DNA from: Eledone cirrhosa | Lineage: Eukaryota | Assembly: GCA_964016885.1 (NCBI GenBank) | Contig: OZ024740.1 | Span: forward strand, 312,728,001-312,792,000 | Direction: 5' to 3' | DNA length: 64,000 nt | Shown here: piece by piece, positions 1 through 47,300 of the stretch | How positions within the stretch are numbered: the stretch's first letter is position 1 | Layout: the number at the start of each line of letters is the position of its first letter | The notes under the pieces: model-generated | The model's input: the letters and a program-made list of their open reading frames with translations, nothing else | Told to the model about the DNA's origin: nothing | Databases searched by the model: none | Made by a program: the position numbers and the translations under genes

Positions 1-2090
1 AACAGGCTAAGCCGGAGAAAGTTGTATTGTCGTTAAAACATAGCAATGCCGTTATGGGGAAAATTCAAACGAGGGAAAGAATGCGCGTGCACGTGATAGG
101 CTGTGGCAAAAGCTACTGACCAATTGGGTTAAATCAATAGGGTGCGCTAGCGTGTGAAAGCCGTAAAATATGTGTGTAAATATATATGTGTGTGTATATG
201 TGTATGTGTGTATGTATGTGAAAGATAGTGGGCCGTAGAAGCTGGAATTCAAAGGTGGTAGGTTGTATAAACATGTGTGCGTGTATAAATATAGATGTGT
301 GTGTGTGTGTGTGTGTGTATGGGTATACATATAAGTGCGTGTGTGTGTGAAAGATAGTAGGCCGTAGGGGCTGTTACTGGTCACTATGGTTAAATTAGTC
401 ATGTCAGCTCATTTCTCTCAGCCCGGTTGTTAAGTGGGGGTCTGAGGTTCTTAATAACAAGTGCTTCCTTTATCCTTAAGGATCCGATGCTGCGTTCAGT
501 CGCTAGGACTGTGACCAAGGGTCTGCCCTGTGGGTTTCCGCATTTAAGGATGTGTTTACGGAAGGAAGATGCGTTGGTGTTGACATGTTCCTTGATACGA
601 ACATCTAGGGGTCGGATGGTGCTACCTATGTAAAACTTGTTACATTTATCGCATTGAATCTTATATACGACATAGGTGCGTAGGCAATCTTCCCCCCGTA
701 TCGGGCAGTTGCTGAGGGAACACGTCCCATCTGACTCGTCGGGTTTGGTGGAGAGGCATCTTCGGAGCAAAGGTCCTGTGTGGGCCAAATGTATGTCAAG
801 TCCCTCCCTCCGTATGGCGTTCATGGTATATTCACTCAGGTGGGGGATTTTAAAGAAGCACCTGCTTTTATCTAAGTTTCTAGTGGGTGTCTGTCTGTTG
901 GGTCTGGGGTCTCTAATTCCGTTAATCAGTCGCTTGGGATATCCATTAGACTTGAGTAGATTACGGAATTGCGTGGTATGGGTGAGACCACCCATCGGGT
1001 CGCTGCATCTATTAGTGATCCGTGTAAGTTCATTTAGGACATAGCCTCTCTTAGCGTTGTTGGGGCGGGCTGAGTTGTAATGCACAAATAAGTCCTTGCA
1101 CGCTGCCTTGCGGTAGAAGGTGGTGTTTAGGTCTCCTTCTTCCGAGATGTTGATACGGAAGTCGAGGAGGGCGAGTGACCCGTCTTCTCCTGGGTGTTCG
1201 ATGGTGAAATCGACGTGATGGTCAGTATCGTTAAAGATTTGGTGAATTTCATTCGCCATCTCTCGGGAAGAAGTGAGTATCAGTATGTCATCAACGTATC
1301 TGGAGTAGAAGGCGACGGCGTTGGGTTGGCAGGTGTTGAGTGCCTTGCGTTCCAGGTGGTCCATGTACGAGATCGCAAGTATGCCGGACAGACTAGAGCC
1401 CATAGGTAGCCCAGAGATCTGTTTGTATATGTGGCCGAGGAAATTGAAGAATGCATTATCCACAACGAAGGAGAGGAGTTGGTGGATGTCCGTGTGTGTG
1501 AGTCCGAAGCAGTGTAAGTTAGATGCTTGGACTCGTTCGGTCAACAGGTCGACGGCTGGGGATGCTGGTACGGAGGTATAAAGGGCGACCACATCAAGAC
1601 TGAAGGTATATCCGTTGTCCTTTCTGGTGTTGGGCGCCAGATGGTGTAGTCGCTCCAAGACCTCCTTTGAGCTGCAGACGTGGGCTGGTAGTGTGTGTAG
1701 AATGGGTTTCAGTAGTGTGGAGAGCAGCCACGATATTTTGTAAAGTGGGCCCTCCACGCTAGAGACAATGGGCCTGATTTTCAAATCGGGTCCTTGTTTA
1801 TGGGTTTTCACCAGGTGGTAGAAGGTGGGTAGTTTGCTGTTTCGAGTCATTGTTATTTTTTACCTTCTTTGGCAGTTGTCGTTGGACACAGATGTTAGTC
1901 CATATGGTGTTAATGCCTTCCTCGATTAGAGTCGAGGAGGTCCCTGTGACTTTCGAGTAGAGGCTGTCGTCATTAAGATGTTGGAGAGCTAAGTTGTTGT
2001 AGGTCTCTCTCGAGATGACACAGAATTCTTTCCCCTTGTCAGAGGGAAGGTAAACAAGGTTCCTGGATCTTAGGTTGGTGAGAGTATTAA
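1..2090 (-). mobile_element. Penelope-like retroelement (RT + C-terminal GIY-YIG endonuclease), 5'-truncated at a microsatellite; 3' region runs off the window edge
   Basis: ORF 399-1850 has PLE RT motifs (FYHLVKTHK, RPIVS, SLDVVALYTSVP, YKQISGLPMGSSLS, RYVDD, FLDF-like LLDF, YRK) then CxxxxC linker and VVYKIQC..C..FYIGST...RIKEH (GIY-YIG) ending PPLN. Upstream frame 1798-2090 carries the PLE N-terminal PSDKG motif. Confidence 0.95.
399..2090 (-). pseudogene. PLE reverse transcriptase/GIY-YIG ORF interrupted by one frameshift near 1856-1861
   Basis: Two overlapping frames (1798-2142 and 399-1850) join at an A-run on the minus strand (GTA AAA AAT AAC AAT G); removing one A gives a continuous ...KKVKITMTRNSKLPTFY. 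No internal stops otherwise. Confidence 0.85.
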
Positions 2091-2690
2091 ATGTATATAT
2101 ATATACATACATATACATATACACATACATACATACACACAATCAGACATATATACACACATATATACACGCATACATACGCATGCACAAATATAGAAAT
2201 ATCTACACACACCTACATACTCACACACACAAATAATTATAAGAAAAAATATAATAATAAAAATACCGTCACATAAGAATAAAAATGAATATAAAAATTA
2301 TAGTGTTGACAGCGACACAGGCAACAAATAAATGAACAAACACACGTGGTAAGCAATACACACAATTGCACGTACACATACATACGTAAAAATAAATACA
2401 TACACACACTCTCACACATACACATACATATACAATTACATATACACATACATACGCATACACATATATACACACACACATACATATATACACACACATA
2501 CATATATACACACACATACATTATATATATATATATATACATACATATCCATACATACATACACATACATACATATCACAAACACATACATACAAATACA
2601 AACACACATATGTATGTGTGTAAAACTCATTCTTAGATGTATTCATATGAACCTTGTTTAACTCTAAAAAATATATATATATATATATAC
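2091..2690. repeat. Compound (CA)/(TA)/(CATA) microsatellite
   Basis: Directly visible low-complexity tracts; source of the spurious HT/YV-rich ORFs. Confidence 0.95.
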
Positions 2691-2730
2691 GATATTAAAC
2701 AAATGGAAACTATATTTATAAAACCATATT

Positions 2731-2796
2731 TATTTCATTATACATATTTCAGGGATACCATATTAAAAATATGGCATGCCTTCGTCAGATAAAATA
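2731..2796 (-). ncRNA. Type I hammerhead ribozyme (PLE-type, minimal palindromic stem III)
   Basis: Minus strand reads UAUUUUAU-CUGACGA-AGGCAUGCCAUAUU-UU-AAUAUGGUAUCCCU-GAAA-UAUGUAU-A-AUGAAAUA. Stem I is 8 bp (1 GU), stem II is 13/14 paired, both core boxes are intact, stem III is AUA/UAU with a UG loop, and the cleavage triplet is AUA (cut between 2739 and 2738). Confidence 0.85.
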
Positions 2797-2969
2797 CAAT
2801 ATATAACCAGTTTTATAAATAATTTTGACGTACCATAAATATAGCGACCATTAATGTAGGAGGCTGGCTTGGTAGTTTAATATCGTATATCTACTCCAAA
2901 AACTTGTCGAGTGCTTTATATCAGTTATAAAATATTTACTTGTAACCCAACAATTTTAAATAAAACTTT

Positions 2970-3013
<44 letters not shown>

Positions 3014-3700
3014 TATATATATACCTACACACACATATACATACACATACATACACACACAGACATATATCTATATATAAGAAAAAACAAATATTATATA
3101 TATAAAAAAAACAAATATTGTATCTATAAAAATAAAAAGTTTGGAATACGACAAATAATAAATAACAAAAATAATTAGAAAAGGGTATAAATGTTTATAG
3201 CTGATTTAGAGCACTCAACAAGTTCCTGGAGGCAAATGATCAATGAAAATAAGCATTAAATCACTGTATGTAATTATGCATATACACACACACATATACA
3301 TATATATATATACATATATACACACACAAACACAACCACAGAAATACACGCACACATACATACATATACGCATATATATATACACACACATAGAAAAAAG
3401 TATGACCCCACGGCAGAGCTCAAGCCGTTTCTGAGGCTATTATATATATACACACAAAACCATTATATAAAAATACATATACACGCCCACACATTATATC
3501 TATATATACACACATACATACACACATATATATACATACATATATATACACACACGCACAAATACAACAGAAGCATATAAAATACAATTATATATATATA
3601 TACATATACATACAGATAAATATAAACATACATACACACACATATATATATATTTATATACATACATATATACACACATATACGCAACACACACACACAA
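2970..3700. repeat. Compound (TA)/(CA) microsatellites with interspersed PLE 3'-region remnants
   Basis: Visible dinucleotide tracts; hammerhead stem III-like remnant at 3409-3431. Confidence 0.85.
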
Positions 3701-3890
3701 ATAAATATCTAAAAATAAAAAAATTGGGTATGTGAAGGGTAAGGCAGAAAGTAGGGGGGGAAATAAATGACATAGGAAAAGGTTTAAATATAAGGGGAGA
3801 TAAGGGAGAAAAAATACGAGAGTACAGAAAGTGAATTCAGAAGGTAAAAAAACCGTATTGCATGTAAGGTGTAGAGAGCAGAGAAGGAGT

Positions 3891-4095
3891 TCATGGTTGT
3901 TGAGTTATCGTAGGAATGTCAATCCAGTACAGATCAGATGATTTCAGGTGAGGACAACATCTGAAGATCTCGGTCTTTGAGTTCAGGCAAGCAGAAGTGG
4001 CTTTCAAGTTTTGTAAAATCCTAAATTTTTCAGTGGTACACAAAGAACAATTCTTTGTGCCCCTTTGGTACTCCCTCGAATGGTCTAAAATAGAT
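3891..4095 (-). mobile_element. C-terminal remnant of a second, different Penelope-like element
   Basis: ILDHSREYQRGTKNCSLCTTEKFRIL...LNSKTEIFRCCPH matches the recalled PLE endonuclease C-terminus pattern Y-x5-CxLCxxEK...LNxxxE...CxH. Confidence 0.75.
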
Positions 4096-4672
4096 GTGTA
4101 GATGTGTATTATGTAAGTTACAAAAGTGCAACTACATGACGAACGAAACAAGCAGAATTATATGAATTGCAATGTTATTCTACTGTAAATTTATACAATC
4201 CTTAAAATAAAACAACTATATGAAACGACATCAAATATATAATTACCACCACGAGAAACTAAACAATGCATAATAAATTGTAACTGAGAGATACGGCTTT
4301 CACTGAGAAAATTGTCTGGAGCGGATAATCATGCGTTTTCATGTATACTTTTATATTGGGTACATCTTCACACAAACATATATTCCTCCCACCCCCATAT
4401 ATATACGTGCAAAAGGTTCAAAACGTCCGAAGAAAACTGGTGAGAGTACCAATGTCGTGAGAGTACCAGTCACGCACTGAGGTCGATTTAATCGACTTTC
4501 CTCTCCCCCAAAATTGCTGGCCTTGTGTCTATATAAGAAACCATTATATATATATACATATTAAGGATGAAAGGCGAGGTTAACTTTGCCTTTCATCCTC
4601 AAGGGGTCGATAAAATAAAGTACCAGTGGGATAATTGTGCCAAAAGTAGAAACAATTATATATATATACATA

Positions 4673-4853
4673 TTGGTAGTATCGGTAGAGGGTCGGACGC
4701 CATGCTTTGACGCATAGAGTTACGGCCCTTGACATTCTGAGTTCAAATCCCACCGAGGTTAACTTTGCCTTTCATCCTTACGGGGTCGATAAAATAAAGT
4801 ACCAGTAATGCACTGGAATAATTACTGGCCTTGTGCCAAAAGTAGAAACAATT
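4673..4853 (+). mobile_element. tRNA-derived SINE with Nin/Deu-like central domain (family A); partial copies at ~4470-4655
   Basis: A-box-like TGG..GT.TCGGTAGAG, B-box GAGTTCAAATCCC, core TTAACTTTGCCTTTCATCCTTACGGGGTCGATAAAATAAAGTACCAG; many copies in the window. Confidence 0.85.
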
Positions 4854-4970
4854 ATATATATACATACACACACACACATTCTTGTTTGACTATATAACCA
4901 TGGAAACAAGTATACAATAGCGTACATCAAACTTACACTTGAAGTTCTATAAATTATTCCATGGACTTAC

Positions 4971-5058
4971 CTTCACATCGGGTTTCAGCAGCAACCAGGG
5001 TCTGTGATAGATTTTCACAGACAGCAAATAAAGCAGTAACTAGAAACAACAACTTCAT
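4971..5058 (-). CDS. MANF: First coding exon of probable MANF/CDNF (ARMET) family ER protein; remaining exons lie left of the window
   Basis: ATG at 5058, MKLLFLVTALFAVCENLSQTLVAAETRCE + G then a perfect GTAAGT donor (phase 1). The signal peptide followed by CE|V matches the recalled MANF/CDNF exon-1 end (DCEV). Divergent position next to HSPA14 mirrors human CDNF. Confidence 0.7.
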
Positions 5059-5742
5059 TTTTAATCAGATCAATAGTTGTGTGGAAGATGACAAAAAAAA
5101 AAAAATGATGTGACACTTATTTCACGATTGTGTGGACAGAGTATAGTTTTCTCTGTAGGGGTGGTAATAGTTGCTTTCTTTTACTATTCTTCCCTATAAC
5201 ACTTTCACATAAAGAAATATATATATATATATATTGAAAATTGAAACAATTAAGGTATTGGAATAATTGGGAGGTCTCTGTTGTATTTCTCTGGTATTCT
5301 AATCTATTTACAGAATTAGTCTAGATTCAGTCTTCGATTAATTACAAATCACTAGAAGAACATCCGACTTTTCCTGTGTATTCTGATATGACAATCCTAT
5401 TCATATAAGATATGTAATGGAATCAACTTCATCATTAATTAAAAATCTAGCTCGCAGTTGTTCTTAAAGACAATTAAGAATTGTTGACTTGGTCAGTTCA
5501 AAAAACTTGGCGTCGAATGATTGGTTATTTACTGATGCCGGCTATATTCGGCGAGATTCTCGTTTAAACTTGTTCAAGTCAACGAGATAGCGTCTAATTA
5601 GAGAGTTCCACTCTACCGGCGGTCTAACACTAATTACCTCCCATTGTCGTTATTATCATCATCATCGACTTAAGTAAGAAGAAAGCTGAGTAGAAATAAA
5701 GGCAACTCATATCACTGGATAAAGGTTTCTATCGTCTCAGCC
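5059..5742. promoter_or_regulatory. Putative bidirectional promoter/5'UTRs (684 bp between divergent ATGs)
   Basis: Two divergent start codons, local CpG enrichment, TE-free; ERSE-like CCAAT-N9-CCAAG on minus strand at 5506-5524. Confidence 0.65.
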
Positions 5743-6036
5743 ATGGCTTCACCGGCTGTTGTGGCTGGAACAGTGATATCTGCAGGATTTGGCCTACATC
5801 TTGGTTCATCGGCTGCTTGTGTTGCTTTTACAAAGGTAATCTTTTAAACTATATAAAATTCTTTTTTTAATCTATTTAATTTACTTCCTAACAATGACGA
5901 GTTCTCTAGAGTTCGCGTAATCATGTCTCGTGAACCTTCTCACCGATAAACACATACACACGTGTGTAGCTATTTATCTATCTATCTACCTATATTTGTG
6001 TGCGGTTATATAAATCTGTGTGTATATAGGTACGTT

Positions 6037-44300: not shown

Positions 44301-47300
44301 AGCTCTTAAGTGGTAATAGGACAGTATGTGTGTGTGTGTGTGCCACTGTTTTTAAGTTAGACATATATGTGTGTATCCGTTTCCTTCCTTTTACACACAG
44401 AAGTCCCTCAAATTTATATACATGTGAATGGAGTTCTACTGAAGCAGTTAGAGAAGTTCAAGTATCTTGGAGCCGTATTCATGAGTGATGGAATGCAGGT
44501 AGCTGAATTAAGTGCAAGAATTGCAAAAGCTGATGCAGTAATGTGCCAGCCTCAGCAATCAGAAGGTGGGTAGGTGTAAAAGCCAAACTCGCTGTCTTCC
44601 TGGTATTCCTGCCAACTCTTACCGAGGATCATGAATCTTGAGTAATGACCAAAAGTATACAATTGCAAATAAAAGCGGCAGAAATGGGATTCCTCCGAAG
44701 GGTCTTTGGAGTAACGTTACTCGATAAAGTACATAACTCAGAGACCAGAGAGTTACTCTTGGTAGAGCCAATACTTCTCTGAATTGAGAGATCACAACTC
44801 TGATATTATGAGCATGTGGTTAGAATGTCTCAGTAAAGAATTGCTGGACACATTTTACTGGCAAAACCAACTGGCAAGAGACCTAGAGGTAGAGCCTGAG
44901 CAAGACAGTTGGATAACATCTATGAGTTTGGCTGGTCACGCTTTGGGATCCAGCTGGATCAGTTAGAGATGTTTGCTTCTGACAGACTCGCTGGAAGGAG
45001 TGTTTGAGAAGGACTCTGCCCCCACGACCCTCTCAGAAATAAGTGGGCGAAGAAGAAGATATTGTCAATTTATATATATATATATATATTTGCGTATAAT
45101 ACCAATATGCACACTACAAATGCTAACAGAAAACCGCCCGCTGGCGGTTTTTCTGTTAGTAATGATAATTATGAGTAAGTTGAAATATATAATTCTAATA
45201 GTTTAGATGCTTAATGTATAATATACAGCTTATTCTGTTGTCTTACATAAGTTTAGCTTGATGGAGTCACTTTGAATGGCTTACCCGAACAGCCTCAGAA
45301 ATTATGAGAGTTGGCTGAAAAGTACATAGGCTGACCAAGATACTCTCATGGAATGACCAAATGAGGTTTATTTTTCAACATAGTCCCTGAAAAGAAACAA
45401 TGTAGTTATTAAGCAGAAGAGTTGAAATTAATGGATGCAAGATTTCACAGCTCTAGCATCACTCCTTTATAGGCTGAGAAGTTCATAGGCTGATCAAGAT
45501 ACTCTCGCAGAATAACCAAATGAGGTTTATTTTTCTTTCCAAGAAAGAAACAATGCAGTTATTAATAAGAAGAGTTGAAGTTAATGCAAGATTTCACAGC
45601 TCTAGCATCATTCTTCCATATCAGCCTCTGAATTTTTCAGCGAACTCTCATATCTATTTGTATGTGTCTATGAAAAGTTTTTAGGCTGACCAATGGAATG
45701 ACCAAATGAGTTGTATTTTTCACCATCGTCCCTAGAAAGAAACAATACAGTTATTAAGAAGAGTTGAAATTAATGCATGCAAGATTTCACAGCTCTAGCA
45801 TCACTCCTTCATATCAGCCTATGAACTTTTCAGCTGACCTTCGTACAAAAGATCATCTGCATGTAGCTGGTCTGTTAAATCTTATTATATTGAACTGTTT
45901 TTCATTGGTTCTTAACTGTTTCTGCTTGCAGCCAATTTGAAAGTGCTTCACACAGCAACTATCTTGGTGATTTGCTCAGAGATAAAGAAGGAATCCTCAT
46001 CAGTGGAATTTCTGATTTTGGTAAGATGTCTAAAGATGAAAGCAAGGTTCTCACATTGTGGATCCGAAACAATGGTAACCACCCTCAGACCCTACTTGAA
46101 ATTCAGCTACCTACTGAAGAATGCCAGTTCCATGTAAATCGTCTGAAGGTGGTTAAAGAATTGATGGCCAGCTCTAAATCAGTTTCAGGTGCCAGAGAGG
46201 TGAAAGGTCCACTGGTTCTCCAATCTCAGATGGCTGCCTATGTAAATATATCCTGTTCTACCAAGTAAGATATTTCTACTGTGTTCAGTTCTGTTGTTTT
46301 ATTGTTTTGTAGTCCAAAGGTAGAACAGACTTCAAATATTGGAGTAGCTTGTAAAAACATATTTATTTCTATAGTTTATGCATCATTATCTATAAAAGGC
46401 AGATTGTTGTTGTTGTTGTGTGTGTGCATGTTCCATCTTTATACATTTTCACAATTTCAAACCGATTCGACTCAAAATCTGTAAGAATGTGGGTAAATGG
46501 TCCAACTTAGGTCAACGACTATTTATTTCATTCAAACTCACCCACAATTACGGAAATAATTGATAAAACTAAATGCATGATGCTGTACCCCTCTAATACA
46601 ATCAGATTTCCTCTCTCTACTCCCCTTCAGAGAAAGTTGCATGTATGTAGTTTTATCAAATAGATAATGATGATGATTAAACTTACAAACTTTAAGAGAG
46701 AGAGAGGGAGAGAGAGAACGTTTGTTTTTGAGTGTGGAACGGTCAAACATTTATTTACTTCAATGACAAAGAGAACTTATTACATTTCATACGAAACAAC
46801 AATTATTCAAAAGCAACAGATAAATTTATTCAACAACAAAAAAAAATAGCGATAAATCTTTTTTAAAACATCTATCAACGAACGTGGAAGAAAGAAGTAT
46901 CAGTTCATTTACTATCATCATTTTACGTCCGCTTTTCCCTGCTTGCAAGGGTGGGATGGGAACTGATTCTGGCTTGATTTCTACAGCTGGATGGCCTTCC
47001 TAACACCAACCTCATTTACAGTGAGTGCTGGGTGCTTTTTTGCCGTGGCACCTACACGACCACTTTGCAGTGGAATGATAGGGACCCCAGTCCCTATCAT
47101 CTTATTTCTACAGCTGAGTAAACTGGAGCAATGTGAAATAAAGTGTCTTGCTCAAGGAAACAACACATCACCCGGTCTGAGAATTGAACTCACAACCTTT
47201 CGATTGCAAGCCCAATGCTCTAACCACTAAGCCATGTGCCTCCATTACTATACACAATAATATCCTCTATGAGGTCACTAAACCCGCTAGAAACAGCAGC

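What the first reader, a model, noticed from the sequence alone, without database searches (positions are those of the whole stretch)
2716..2816. Complete hammerhead ribozyme, sense-oriented in intron 1 of the MANF-like gene
Seen: on the minus strand both catalytic boxes (CUGACGA, GAAA...UH) are intact, with an 8-bp stem I extendable by AUAUU/AAUAU and AUAAAAC/GUUUUAU, a long stem II and a self-complementary stem III (AUAUGUAU). Known: Penelope-like elements carry minimal type I hammerheads with palindromic stem III that cleave better as dimers. Inference: its coding parent has decayed, yet the ribozyme lies on the strand of the host pre-mRNA and ~650 nt upstream of a near-intact PLE ORF. It could cut the intron co-transcriptionally or release a PLE template from the host transcript.
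Basis: partly seen in the sequence, partly recalled or inferred. Interest (0 to 1): 0.75.

Follow-up and report, generated by a model that had tools for sequence, protein, structure and literature searches.

The report
Transposon ribozyme stranded in an intron
The hammerhead ribozyme motif is real and points the same way as the host gene, but it is the end piece of a young, very common Penelope-like jumping gene that landed in an older transposon inside this large intron, and it is predicted to cut poorly alone, so it is likely an ordinary passenger.

Summary
Observation confirmed: a complete type I hammerhead lies on the minus strand (core 2788-2782, GAAA 2750-2747, predicted cut 2739/2738), in sense within the 83.4-kb intron 1 of a MANF gene. 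The interpretation largely fails. The motif is the pseudo-LTR of a young Hydra-type Penelope-like element. The 60-nt core has 755 identical genomic copies, a 32-nt end piece has 26,470, and one copy with an intact 742-aa ORF was found, so the parent has not decayed. The window copy is a 283-bp two-armed stub (2690-2972) in a (TA)n tract of an older element, and six paralogues of that element show the empty site. The neighbouring ORF is a third family with its own ends; it lacks 308 codons and is frameshifted. 29 of 30 sampled copies read through the cut site, so the copied RNA was uncut or re-joined. The active monomer fold is predicted to be rare (about 3e-5). The intron holds five hammerhead motifs, in both orientations. 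Cleavage, expression and orthologous loci were not tested. The scan noted this two-armed architecture before on other DNA of this genome. Known kind; low interest.

The parts
2690..2972 (.). 283-bp two-armed insertion of a young Hydra-type Penelope-like element (ends uncertain by a few nt because of the TA tracts)
   Evidence: Copies at 90-100% identity bounded by (TA)n; absent from 6 paralogues of the surrounding older element
2690..2876 (-). Sense arm: pseudo-LTR carrying the hammerhead, ending at the first of two fixed 3' end points
   Evidence: 94-99.5% identical to the pseudo-LTRs of ORF-bearing copies L041, L066, L067, L069
2875..2972 (+). Inverted arm: the element's roughly 95-nt tail (part of the 5' UTR), ending at the second fixed end point; joined to the sense arm at a 2-nt overlap
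   Evidence: Follows the pseudo-LTR and precedes the ATG in long copies
2716..2816 (-). Type I hammerhead ribozyme motif with extended stem I
2782..2788 (-). Catalytic box CUGACGA (C3-A9)
   Evidence: only N7 varies among 25 variants
2751..2781 (-). Stem II, 13 bp with a C.C mismatch; the first A pairs inconsistently across subfamilies (likely the extra nucleotide between 9 and 10.1)
   Evidence: Pair probabilities 0.9-1.0 for 12 of 13 pairs; 6 pairs with two-sided changes
2738..2750 (-). GAAA box, palindromic stem III and predicted cut site 2739/2738
   Evidence: dimer energetics
2670..2689 (.). (TA)n target tract, left part
   Evidence: uninterrupted TA-rich tract in empty paralogues
2973..3000 (.). 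(TA)n target tract, right part
2093..4094 (-). Older 5'-truncated Hydra-like element (endonuclease C-terminus at 3891-4094, microsatellite-rich 3' UTR) that hosts the insertion; it resumes about 208 nt left of the window start and ends in its own hammerhead
   Evidence: best paralogues 90-94% identical over the query
1..2092 (-). Separate canonical PLE (RT + GIY-YIG with CCHH), nested, 5'-truncated and frameshifted; its pseudo-LTR runs about 208 nt beyond the window start
4971..5058 (-). Coding part of exon 1 of the MANF gene; intron 1 starts at 4970 and is 83.4 kb long
   Evidence: exon 1 itself assigned by splice phase and signal-peptide look

Best explanation
The motif is the hammerhead of the pseudo-LTR of a young, high-copy Penelope-like retrotransposon with Hydra-clade motifs, left as a 283-bp stub in a (TA)n tract inside an older transposon in MANF intron 1, where it is likely a neutral passenger that is predicted to cut poorly on its own. 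Shown: family identity, copy number, two-armed shape, two fixed 3' end points about 100 nt apart, empty paralogous sites, read-through of the cut site. Inferred: the element's endonuclease nicked both strands of the TA tract; reverse transcription started once at each of two signals on uncut RNA (each end point lies just before a copy of the same bulged hairpin); one cDNA ran about 190 nt, probably to the RNA's 5' end, the other about 100 nt, and the two were joined head to head. In the parent the ribozyme likely acts only as a strand-exchanged dimer or with protein help.
For: 755 exact copies of the 60-nt core. 26,470 exact copies of a 32-mer shared by related subfamilies. The motif sits at the 3' end of ORF-bearing copies; 15 of 20 regions show an inverted pseudo-LTR on the 5' side of the ORF and 5 of 20 a sense pseudo-LTR plus tail before the ATG. 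One intact 742-aa ORF among the 20 loci (L061; the same locus as L069). 3' ends at +189 to +195 in 19 of 30 copies and at +290 in 10 of 30, matching the two initiation sites and tail described for PAc (PMC11167929). Empty TA tract in 6 of 11 paralogues of the host element; 3 carry a 91%-related insertion in the opposite orientation and 2 do not span the site. 29 of 30 copies anchored 3' of the cut site include it. Active monomer fold costs 6.3 kcal/mol (P about 3e-5), while a double hammerhead lies 1.6 kcal/mol above two monomers.
Against: No cleavage or expression data. Nearest-neighbour energies ignore tertiary contacts, Mg2+ and proteins; the dimer's own MFE (-37.5) is a different fold from the double hammerhead (-30.4). 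Read-through is equally explained by cut-and-religated circular RNA. Clade assignment rests on motifs, with no tree, and Pfam sees neither RT nor GIY-YIG in the 742-aa ORF. Samples are the first 30 hits along one chromosome, and paired arms are not independent. Neutrality is argued from youth and commonness, not measured.
Confidence: 0.9

Rival explanations
1. The stub is transposon-derived but does cut MANF pre-mRNA at a measurable rate (as monomer, with protein help, or by pairing in trans with another family RNA), lowering or tuning MANF output.
For: Intact core, sense orientation, 2.2 kb after the 5' splice site of an 83-kb intron. A relative with the same stem III and a compatible stem I lies in sense 49.7 kb further on. 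The PAc hammerhead cleaves when the element's protein is added (PMC11167929, main text). An intronic ribozyme affects CPEB3 output in mouse (PMC10274809, start of abstract only).
Against: Predicted active monomer fraction 4e-6 to 3e-5 at 15-37 C. Metazoan PLE hammerheads showed no monomer and only low dimer activity in vitro (PMC4209133). Intactness is explained by youth: 755 identical cores.
Confidence: 0.07
2. One reading: cleavage frees the downstream PLE ORF from the MANF transcript as a transposition template.
For: Same strand, 650 nt apart; that family is young, with 1,018 candidates and 96-99% identity among the other 39 scored matches.
Against: Different family (protein identity 23%, GC 49% vs 31%). 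Nested separately: L209 joins the two flanks directly. Carries its own pseudo-LTR, lacks 308 codons and is frameshifted. Homology of 14 other copies stops at 2092 and does not continue into this hammerhead; one (L124) has an independent 85%-related insertion upstream.
Confidence: 0.02
3. The stub is a member of a self-propagating non-autonomous mini-element (retrozyme or SINE-like) rather than a one-off truncation product.
For: 22 of 52 matches cover nearly the whole two-armed query; 4 other loci share the exact junction.
Against: Most junctions differ on the inverted side while the sense arm starts at nearly the same base, which points to repeated independent formation. There is no tandem array and only one ribozyme. 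The query itself selected for that junction.
Confidence: 0.1

Closest known systems
Hydra clade of C-terminal EN+ Penelope-like elements (Craig et al. 2021, PMC8557442; Hydra-1_Obim from Octopus bimaculoides is listed in its File S1)
   Same: DKT motif, CxCX5C linker, no CCHH, CxxC and CxH around the conserved E and N, (TA)n targets, canonical hammerhead near the 3' end, inverted 5' copies
   Different: Element about 4.3 kb because of a 1.76-kb 3' UTR (Hydra generally <3 kb); RWR instead of RWK; tail about 95-100 nt instead of 30-40; the hammerhead sequence differs from the Hydra-1_oBim row of File S2 (compared by eye)
PLE hammerheads of metazoans (Cervera and de la Pena 2014, PMC4209133)
   Same: Type I topology, long stem II, extra nucleotide after A9, short palindromic stem III, mostly solitary copies from truncated elements
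   Different: Stem I is much longer here (8 + 5 + 10 bp); 8-nt stem III palindrome with tandem U.G pairs
PAc Poseidon element of Anolis (Frangieh et al. 2024, PMC11167929)
   Same: Two initiation sites that define a tail, AT-rich target, both strands extended, uncut RNA as the main template
   Different: There initiation lies inside the ORF and the ribozyme overlaps the start codon; here both end points lie in the 5' UTR, each before a repeated hairpin; no in vitro data here
Animal non-LTR retrozymes (Li et al. 2026, bioRxiv 10.64898/2026.07.22.740005; PMC7229834 seen as listing only)
   Same: Non-coding, type I hammerhead, PLE-derived
   Different: No tandem units; a single ribozyme; directly part of a coding PLE's end

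Membership tests
Type I hammerhead ribozyme | CUGANGA and GAAA boxes, NUH cut site, three-helix junction with open stem I | tested here: met
   stem III is only 2 bp as a monomer
Type I hammerhead ribozyme | Covariation in stems | tested here: met
   7 of 28 pairs change on both sides (6 in stem II, 1 in stem I); 0/500 shuffles reach the score; the control ignores relatedness
Type I hammerhead ribozyme | Match to an Rfam hammerhead model | tested here: not met
   No hit at gathering or at E<=10; the long stem II probably falls outside the models (inference)
Type I hammerhead ribozyme | Self-cleavage | not testable with these tools
   Only folding energies
Penelope-like element (EN+) | Single ORF with RT and C-terminal GIY-YIG | tested here: inconclusive
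   RT-like motifs including YRDD and a YVG..R..H..endonuclease-like end seen by eye in the 742-aa ORF; blastp to the Pfam-positive neighbour E 0.002; no Pfam hit
Penelope-like element (EN+) | Pseudo-LTRs with hammerhead, partial tandems, inverted 5' copy, optional tail | tested here: met
Hydra clade | DKT, CxCX5C linker, no CCHH, CxxC/CxH around E and N | tested here: met
   Proteins read against section 11 of PMC8557442; L061 itself has Y at the first linker C, other copies have C
Hydra clade | RWK motif present, GxKF/Y not conserved | tested here: inconclusive
   RWR present; a GIKF occurs here but reads SIKF in a relative
Hydra clade | (TA)n target | tested here: met
Hydra clade | Placement in the RT phylogeny | not tested
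   No reference proteins were available as usable sequences
Neptune/Nematis clades | CCHH motif and CX2-5CxxC linker | tested here: not met
   Absent from the parent ORF; my first label 'Neptune' was dropped
Non-LTR retrozyme | At least two tandem units, each with a hammerhead | tested here: not met
   Single ribozyme, no tandem unit
Domesticated intronic ribozyme (CPEB3-like) | Single copy, conserved at the orthologous site | tested here: not met
   755 identical cores; younger than the transposon around it; orthologous loci themselves not examined

The most novel reading that the evidence does not exclude
Thousands of dimer-dependent hammerheads seeded into introns by this family stay silent alone but are switched on in trans when pseudo-LTR RNA of the same family pairs through the shared palindromic stem III and stem I, so that transposon expression would cut host pre-mRNAs such as MANF genome-wide.
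Probability: 0.04. Interest if true: 0.75.

Novelty: new member of a known kind. Interest (0 to 1): 0.2.

Why it matters
This copy matters little: it is one of hundreds of identical stubs. The family is a useful test bed for how Hydra-type Penelope-like elements copy themselves: an intact ORF, two fixed end points each followed by a repeated hairpin, 5' ends clustered about 120-135 nt upstream of an uncut ribozyme site, and many subfamilies with natural compensatory changes. If trans-activated cutting of introns were real, it would tie transposon expression to host pre-mRNA turnover.

Tried and rejected
Rfam scans: no hammerhead family hit. Repeat finder on 1-6000: microsatellite noise only. 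'Neptune' and 'Poseidon' labels from my recall: Neptune dropped after reading the Hydra definition; the neighbouring ORF has DKG, GxKF, CCHH and a C-rich linker, so its clade is left open among canonical PLEs. An invertible cassette between 15-bp inverted repeats: rejected, because the repeat is the overlap of the two arms. The 3891-4157 remnant as parent: rejected. Sequencing runs: no RNA holder listed; no reads were laid, so expression and presence at the orthologous site remain open. My stem-signature grouping failed on a wrong spacer length, so the 25 variants of alignment A2 were picked by hand from 72 distinct cores, leaving out singletons that looked like decay and copies with internal deletions; this raises the paired percentage. 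Pfam gave nothing for exon 1 or for the plus-strand exon at 5742. Look-ups of earlier findings near this place and by sequence were empty. Four literature searches showed no paper on this family's hammerhead; subscription papers and Repbase were not searched, and bioRxiv supplements were not seen. The species was not determined.

Full report
Observation. The minus strand at 2816-2716 reads as a complete type I hammerhead: CUGACGA at 2788-2782, a 13-bp stem II with one C.C mismatch, GAAA at 2750-2747, a self-complementary AUAUGUAU, and a predicted cut at 2739/2738, closed by an 8-bp stem I with two further helices. A descriptor finds it once in the window and never in 100 shuffles; the fold z-score is -3.24. 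Rfam does not recognise it. In 25 hand-picked variants only N7 of the first box varies, and 7 of 28 pairs show two-sided changes. The host gene is MANF: exon 2 matches ARMET_N 5-45, and exons 3 and 4 match ARMET_N 46-93 and ARMET_C, all on the minus strand. Exon 1 at 5058-4971 is assigned by splice phase and a signal-peptide look. Intron 1 is 83.4 kb and the cut site lies 2.2 kb after its 5' splice site.

What it belongs to. A search of the own genome gave 52 matches at 90-100% identity from 40 of 457 candidates scored. The exact 60-nt core occurs 755 times. A 32-mer spanning the cut site occurs 26,470 times, spread over related subfamilies that diverge upstream. Longer copies place the motif at the end of a coding element: pseudo-LTR with ribozyme, a roughly 95-nt tail, ORF, 1.76-kb 3' UTR, pseudo-LTR, optional tail, (TA)n. 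Of 20 regions, 15 have an inverted pseudo-LTR on the 5' side of the ORF and 5 have a sense pseudo-LTR plus tail before the ATG. The ORF piece has 3,056 candidates, the 40 scored being 96-100% identical; one locus of 20 holds an uninterrupted 742-aa ORF. Its DKT, CxCX5C linker, missing CCHH and CxxC/CxH motifs fit the Hydra clade as defined in section 11 of PMC8557442. I first called it Neptune from recall and checked Hydra after reading note e1-8836125. No tree was built, and Pfam does not recognise the protein.

Anatomy of this copy. The insertion spans 2690-2972: a sense arm (2876-2690) and an inverted tail arm (2875-2972), head to head, between TA tracts. It sits in the 3' UTR of an older Hydra-like element whose endonuclease remnant is at 3891-4094. 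Six of 11 paralogues of that element show the TA tract empty, three carry a related insertion in the opposite orientation, and two do not span the site. That older element ends in its own, different hammerhead 648 nt left of the window start. The ORF at 399-2092 is a third family, nested in the same older element (L209 joins its two flanks), with its own pseudo-LTR, 308 codons missing and a frameshift. The locus is therefore three nested Penelope-like insertions, not one ribozyme-ORF unit.

Mechanism. Shown: 3' ends fall at two points, +189 to +195 in 19 of 30 copies and +290 in 10 of 30; each point is followed by a copy of the same bulged hairpin; 29 of 30 copies anchored 3' of the cut site run through it, 28 with both boxes intact; 5' ends cluster near the pseudo-LTR start in 15 of 30 and 9 of 30 copies of two partly overlapping samples. 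Inferred, by analogy with PAc (PMC11167929, parts 1-2 of the text read): both strands of the TA target are nicked, reverse transcription starts internally at the two signals on uncut RNA, and two short cDNAs are joined head to head. The clustered 5' ends may mark the transcription start; fold-back priming at a short palindrome is the alternative. Read-through does not exclude a cut and re-joined circular template, the model proposed in PMC4209133 (parts 1-2 read).

Would it cut MANF pre-mRNA? In its flanks stem II forms (pair probability 0.9-1.0), proximal stem I rarely (0.09) and stem III not at all; the active monomer costs about 6.3 kcal/mol. A strand-exchanged dimer is 1.6 kcal/mol above two monomers, though a different dimer fold is lower still. 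This agrees with the low, dimer-dependent activity reported for metazoan PLE hammerheads (PMC4209133) and the protein dependence of the PAc ribozyme. The intron holds five descriptor-positive hammerheads, three sense and two antisense, and 26,470 hits in 3.0 Gb is about one per 113 kb, so finding one here is expected. In Xenopus, 42-44% of retrozyme copies are intronic although depleted after normalisation (bioRxiv 10.64898/2026.07.22.740005; abstract, introduction, part of methods and passages read). No reads were laid, so expression, RNA ends and orthologous loci are untested.

Comparison and novelty. It works like, and by structure is, a PLE type I hammerhead; by motifs the parent is a Hydra-clade element, a clade already listed from an octopus genome with a hammerhead (supplement rows of PMC8557442). 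Penelope-like elements are reported as recently active in Octopus vulgaris (PMC13282606, passages; 'hammerhead' does not occur in it). Four searches found no paper on this family. Earlier notes of this scan describe the same two-armed architecture on other DNA of this genome; they are leads, not support. It is not a retrozyme (no tandem units) and not a domesticated intronic ribozyme (multi-copy, younger than its surrounding transposon).

Verdict. Real motif, known kind, ordinary location. Interest 0.2; new member of a known kind. The boldest reading left open, trans-activated cutting of host introns by family RNA, has about 4% probability.

Noticed in passing
L031:9352 minus strand (648 nt left of window start): Second sense-strand hammerhead in the same intron, with a different palindromic stem III; it is the 3' end of the older Hydra-like element that hosts both nested insertions.
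   Followed up: yes
L031 about 9970-9940, minus strand (30-60 nt left of window start): The neighbouring PLE's pseudo-LTR holds a hammerhead-like motif with a non-canonical first box (UUGAUG), a GUGA-capped stem and GAAA; also visible in L119, L121, L123, L126. Not tested as a ribozyme.
   Followed up: partly
window 2875-2972 and L066/L067/L068 5' UTR: Each of the two fixed 3' end points is followed by a copy of the same roughly 35-nt bulged hairpin, with an A-U to G-C compensatory change between the two copies; reported before for other families in note e1-8836125.
   Followed up: partly
L131-L190, around window position 2875: 5' ends cluster near the start of the pseudo-LTR: 15 of 30 copies at +5 to +20 (alignment limits) and 9 of 30 at about -2 to +13 (by eye), often as head-to-head pairs; candidate transcription start or fold-back priming site. 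Four more end at +58 to +67, near the base of stem I.
   Followed up: partly
L200, L201, L203 (C1 399.28-399.34 Mb): Three near-identical paralogues of the host element carry a related insertion in the same TA tract but in the opposite orientation, showing repeated use of one target.
   Followed up: partly
window 3194-3231, minus strand: A diverged copy of the end-point hairpin motif lies inside the older element's 3' UTR and is also present in its paralogues.
   Followed up: no
window 5742-5836, plus strand: Probable first exon of a divergently transcribed gene about 700 nt from the MANF start; resembles an Hsp70-family (HSPA14-like) N-terminus from recall; no Pfam hit.
   Followed up: partly
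window 4460-4870: Fragments of a common SINE-like repeat, found in many of the fetched loci.
   Followed up: no
window 47177-47234, minus strand: Weak tRNA match (31 bits), probably a tRNA-derived SINE head.
   Followed up: no
L034:1-1749, minus strand: A long C2H2 zinc-finger-like reading frame (583 aa, open end) lies inside MANF intron 1 on the same strand.
   Followed up: no
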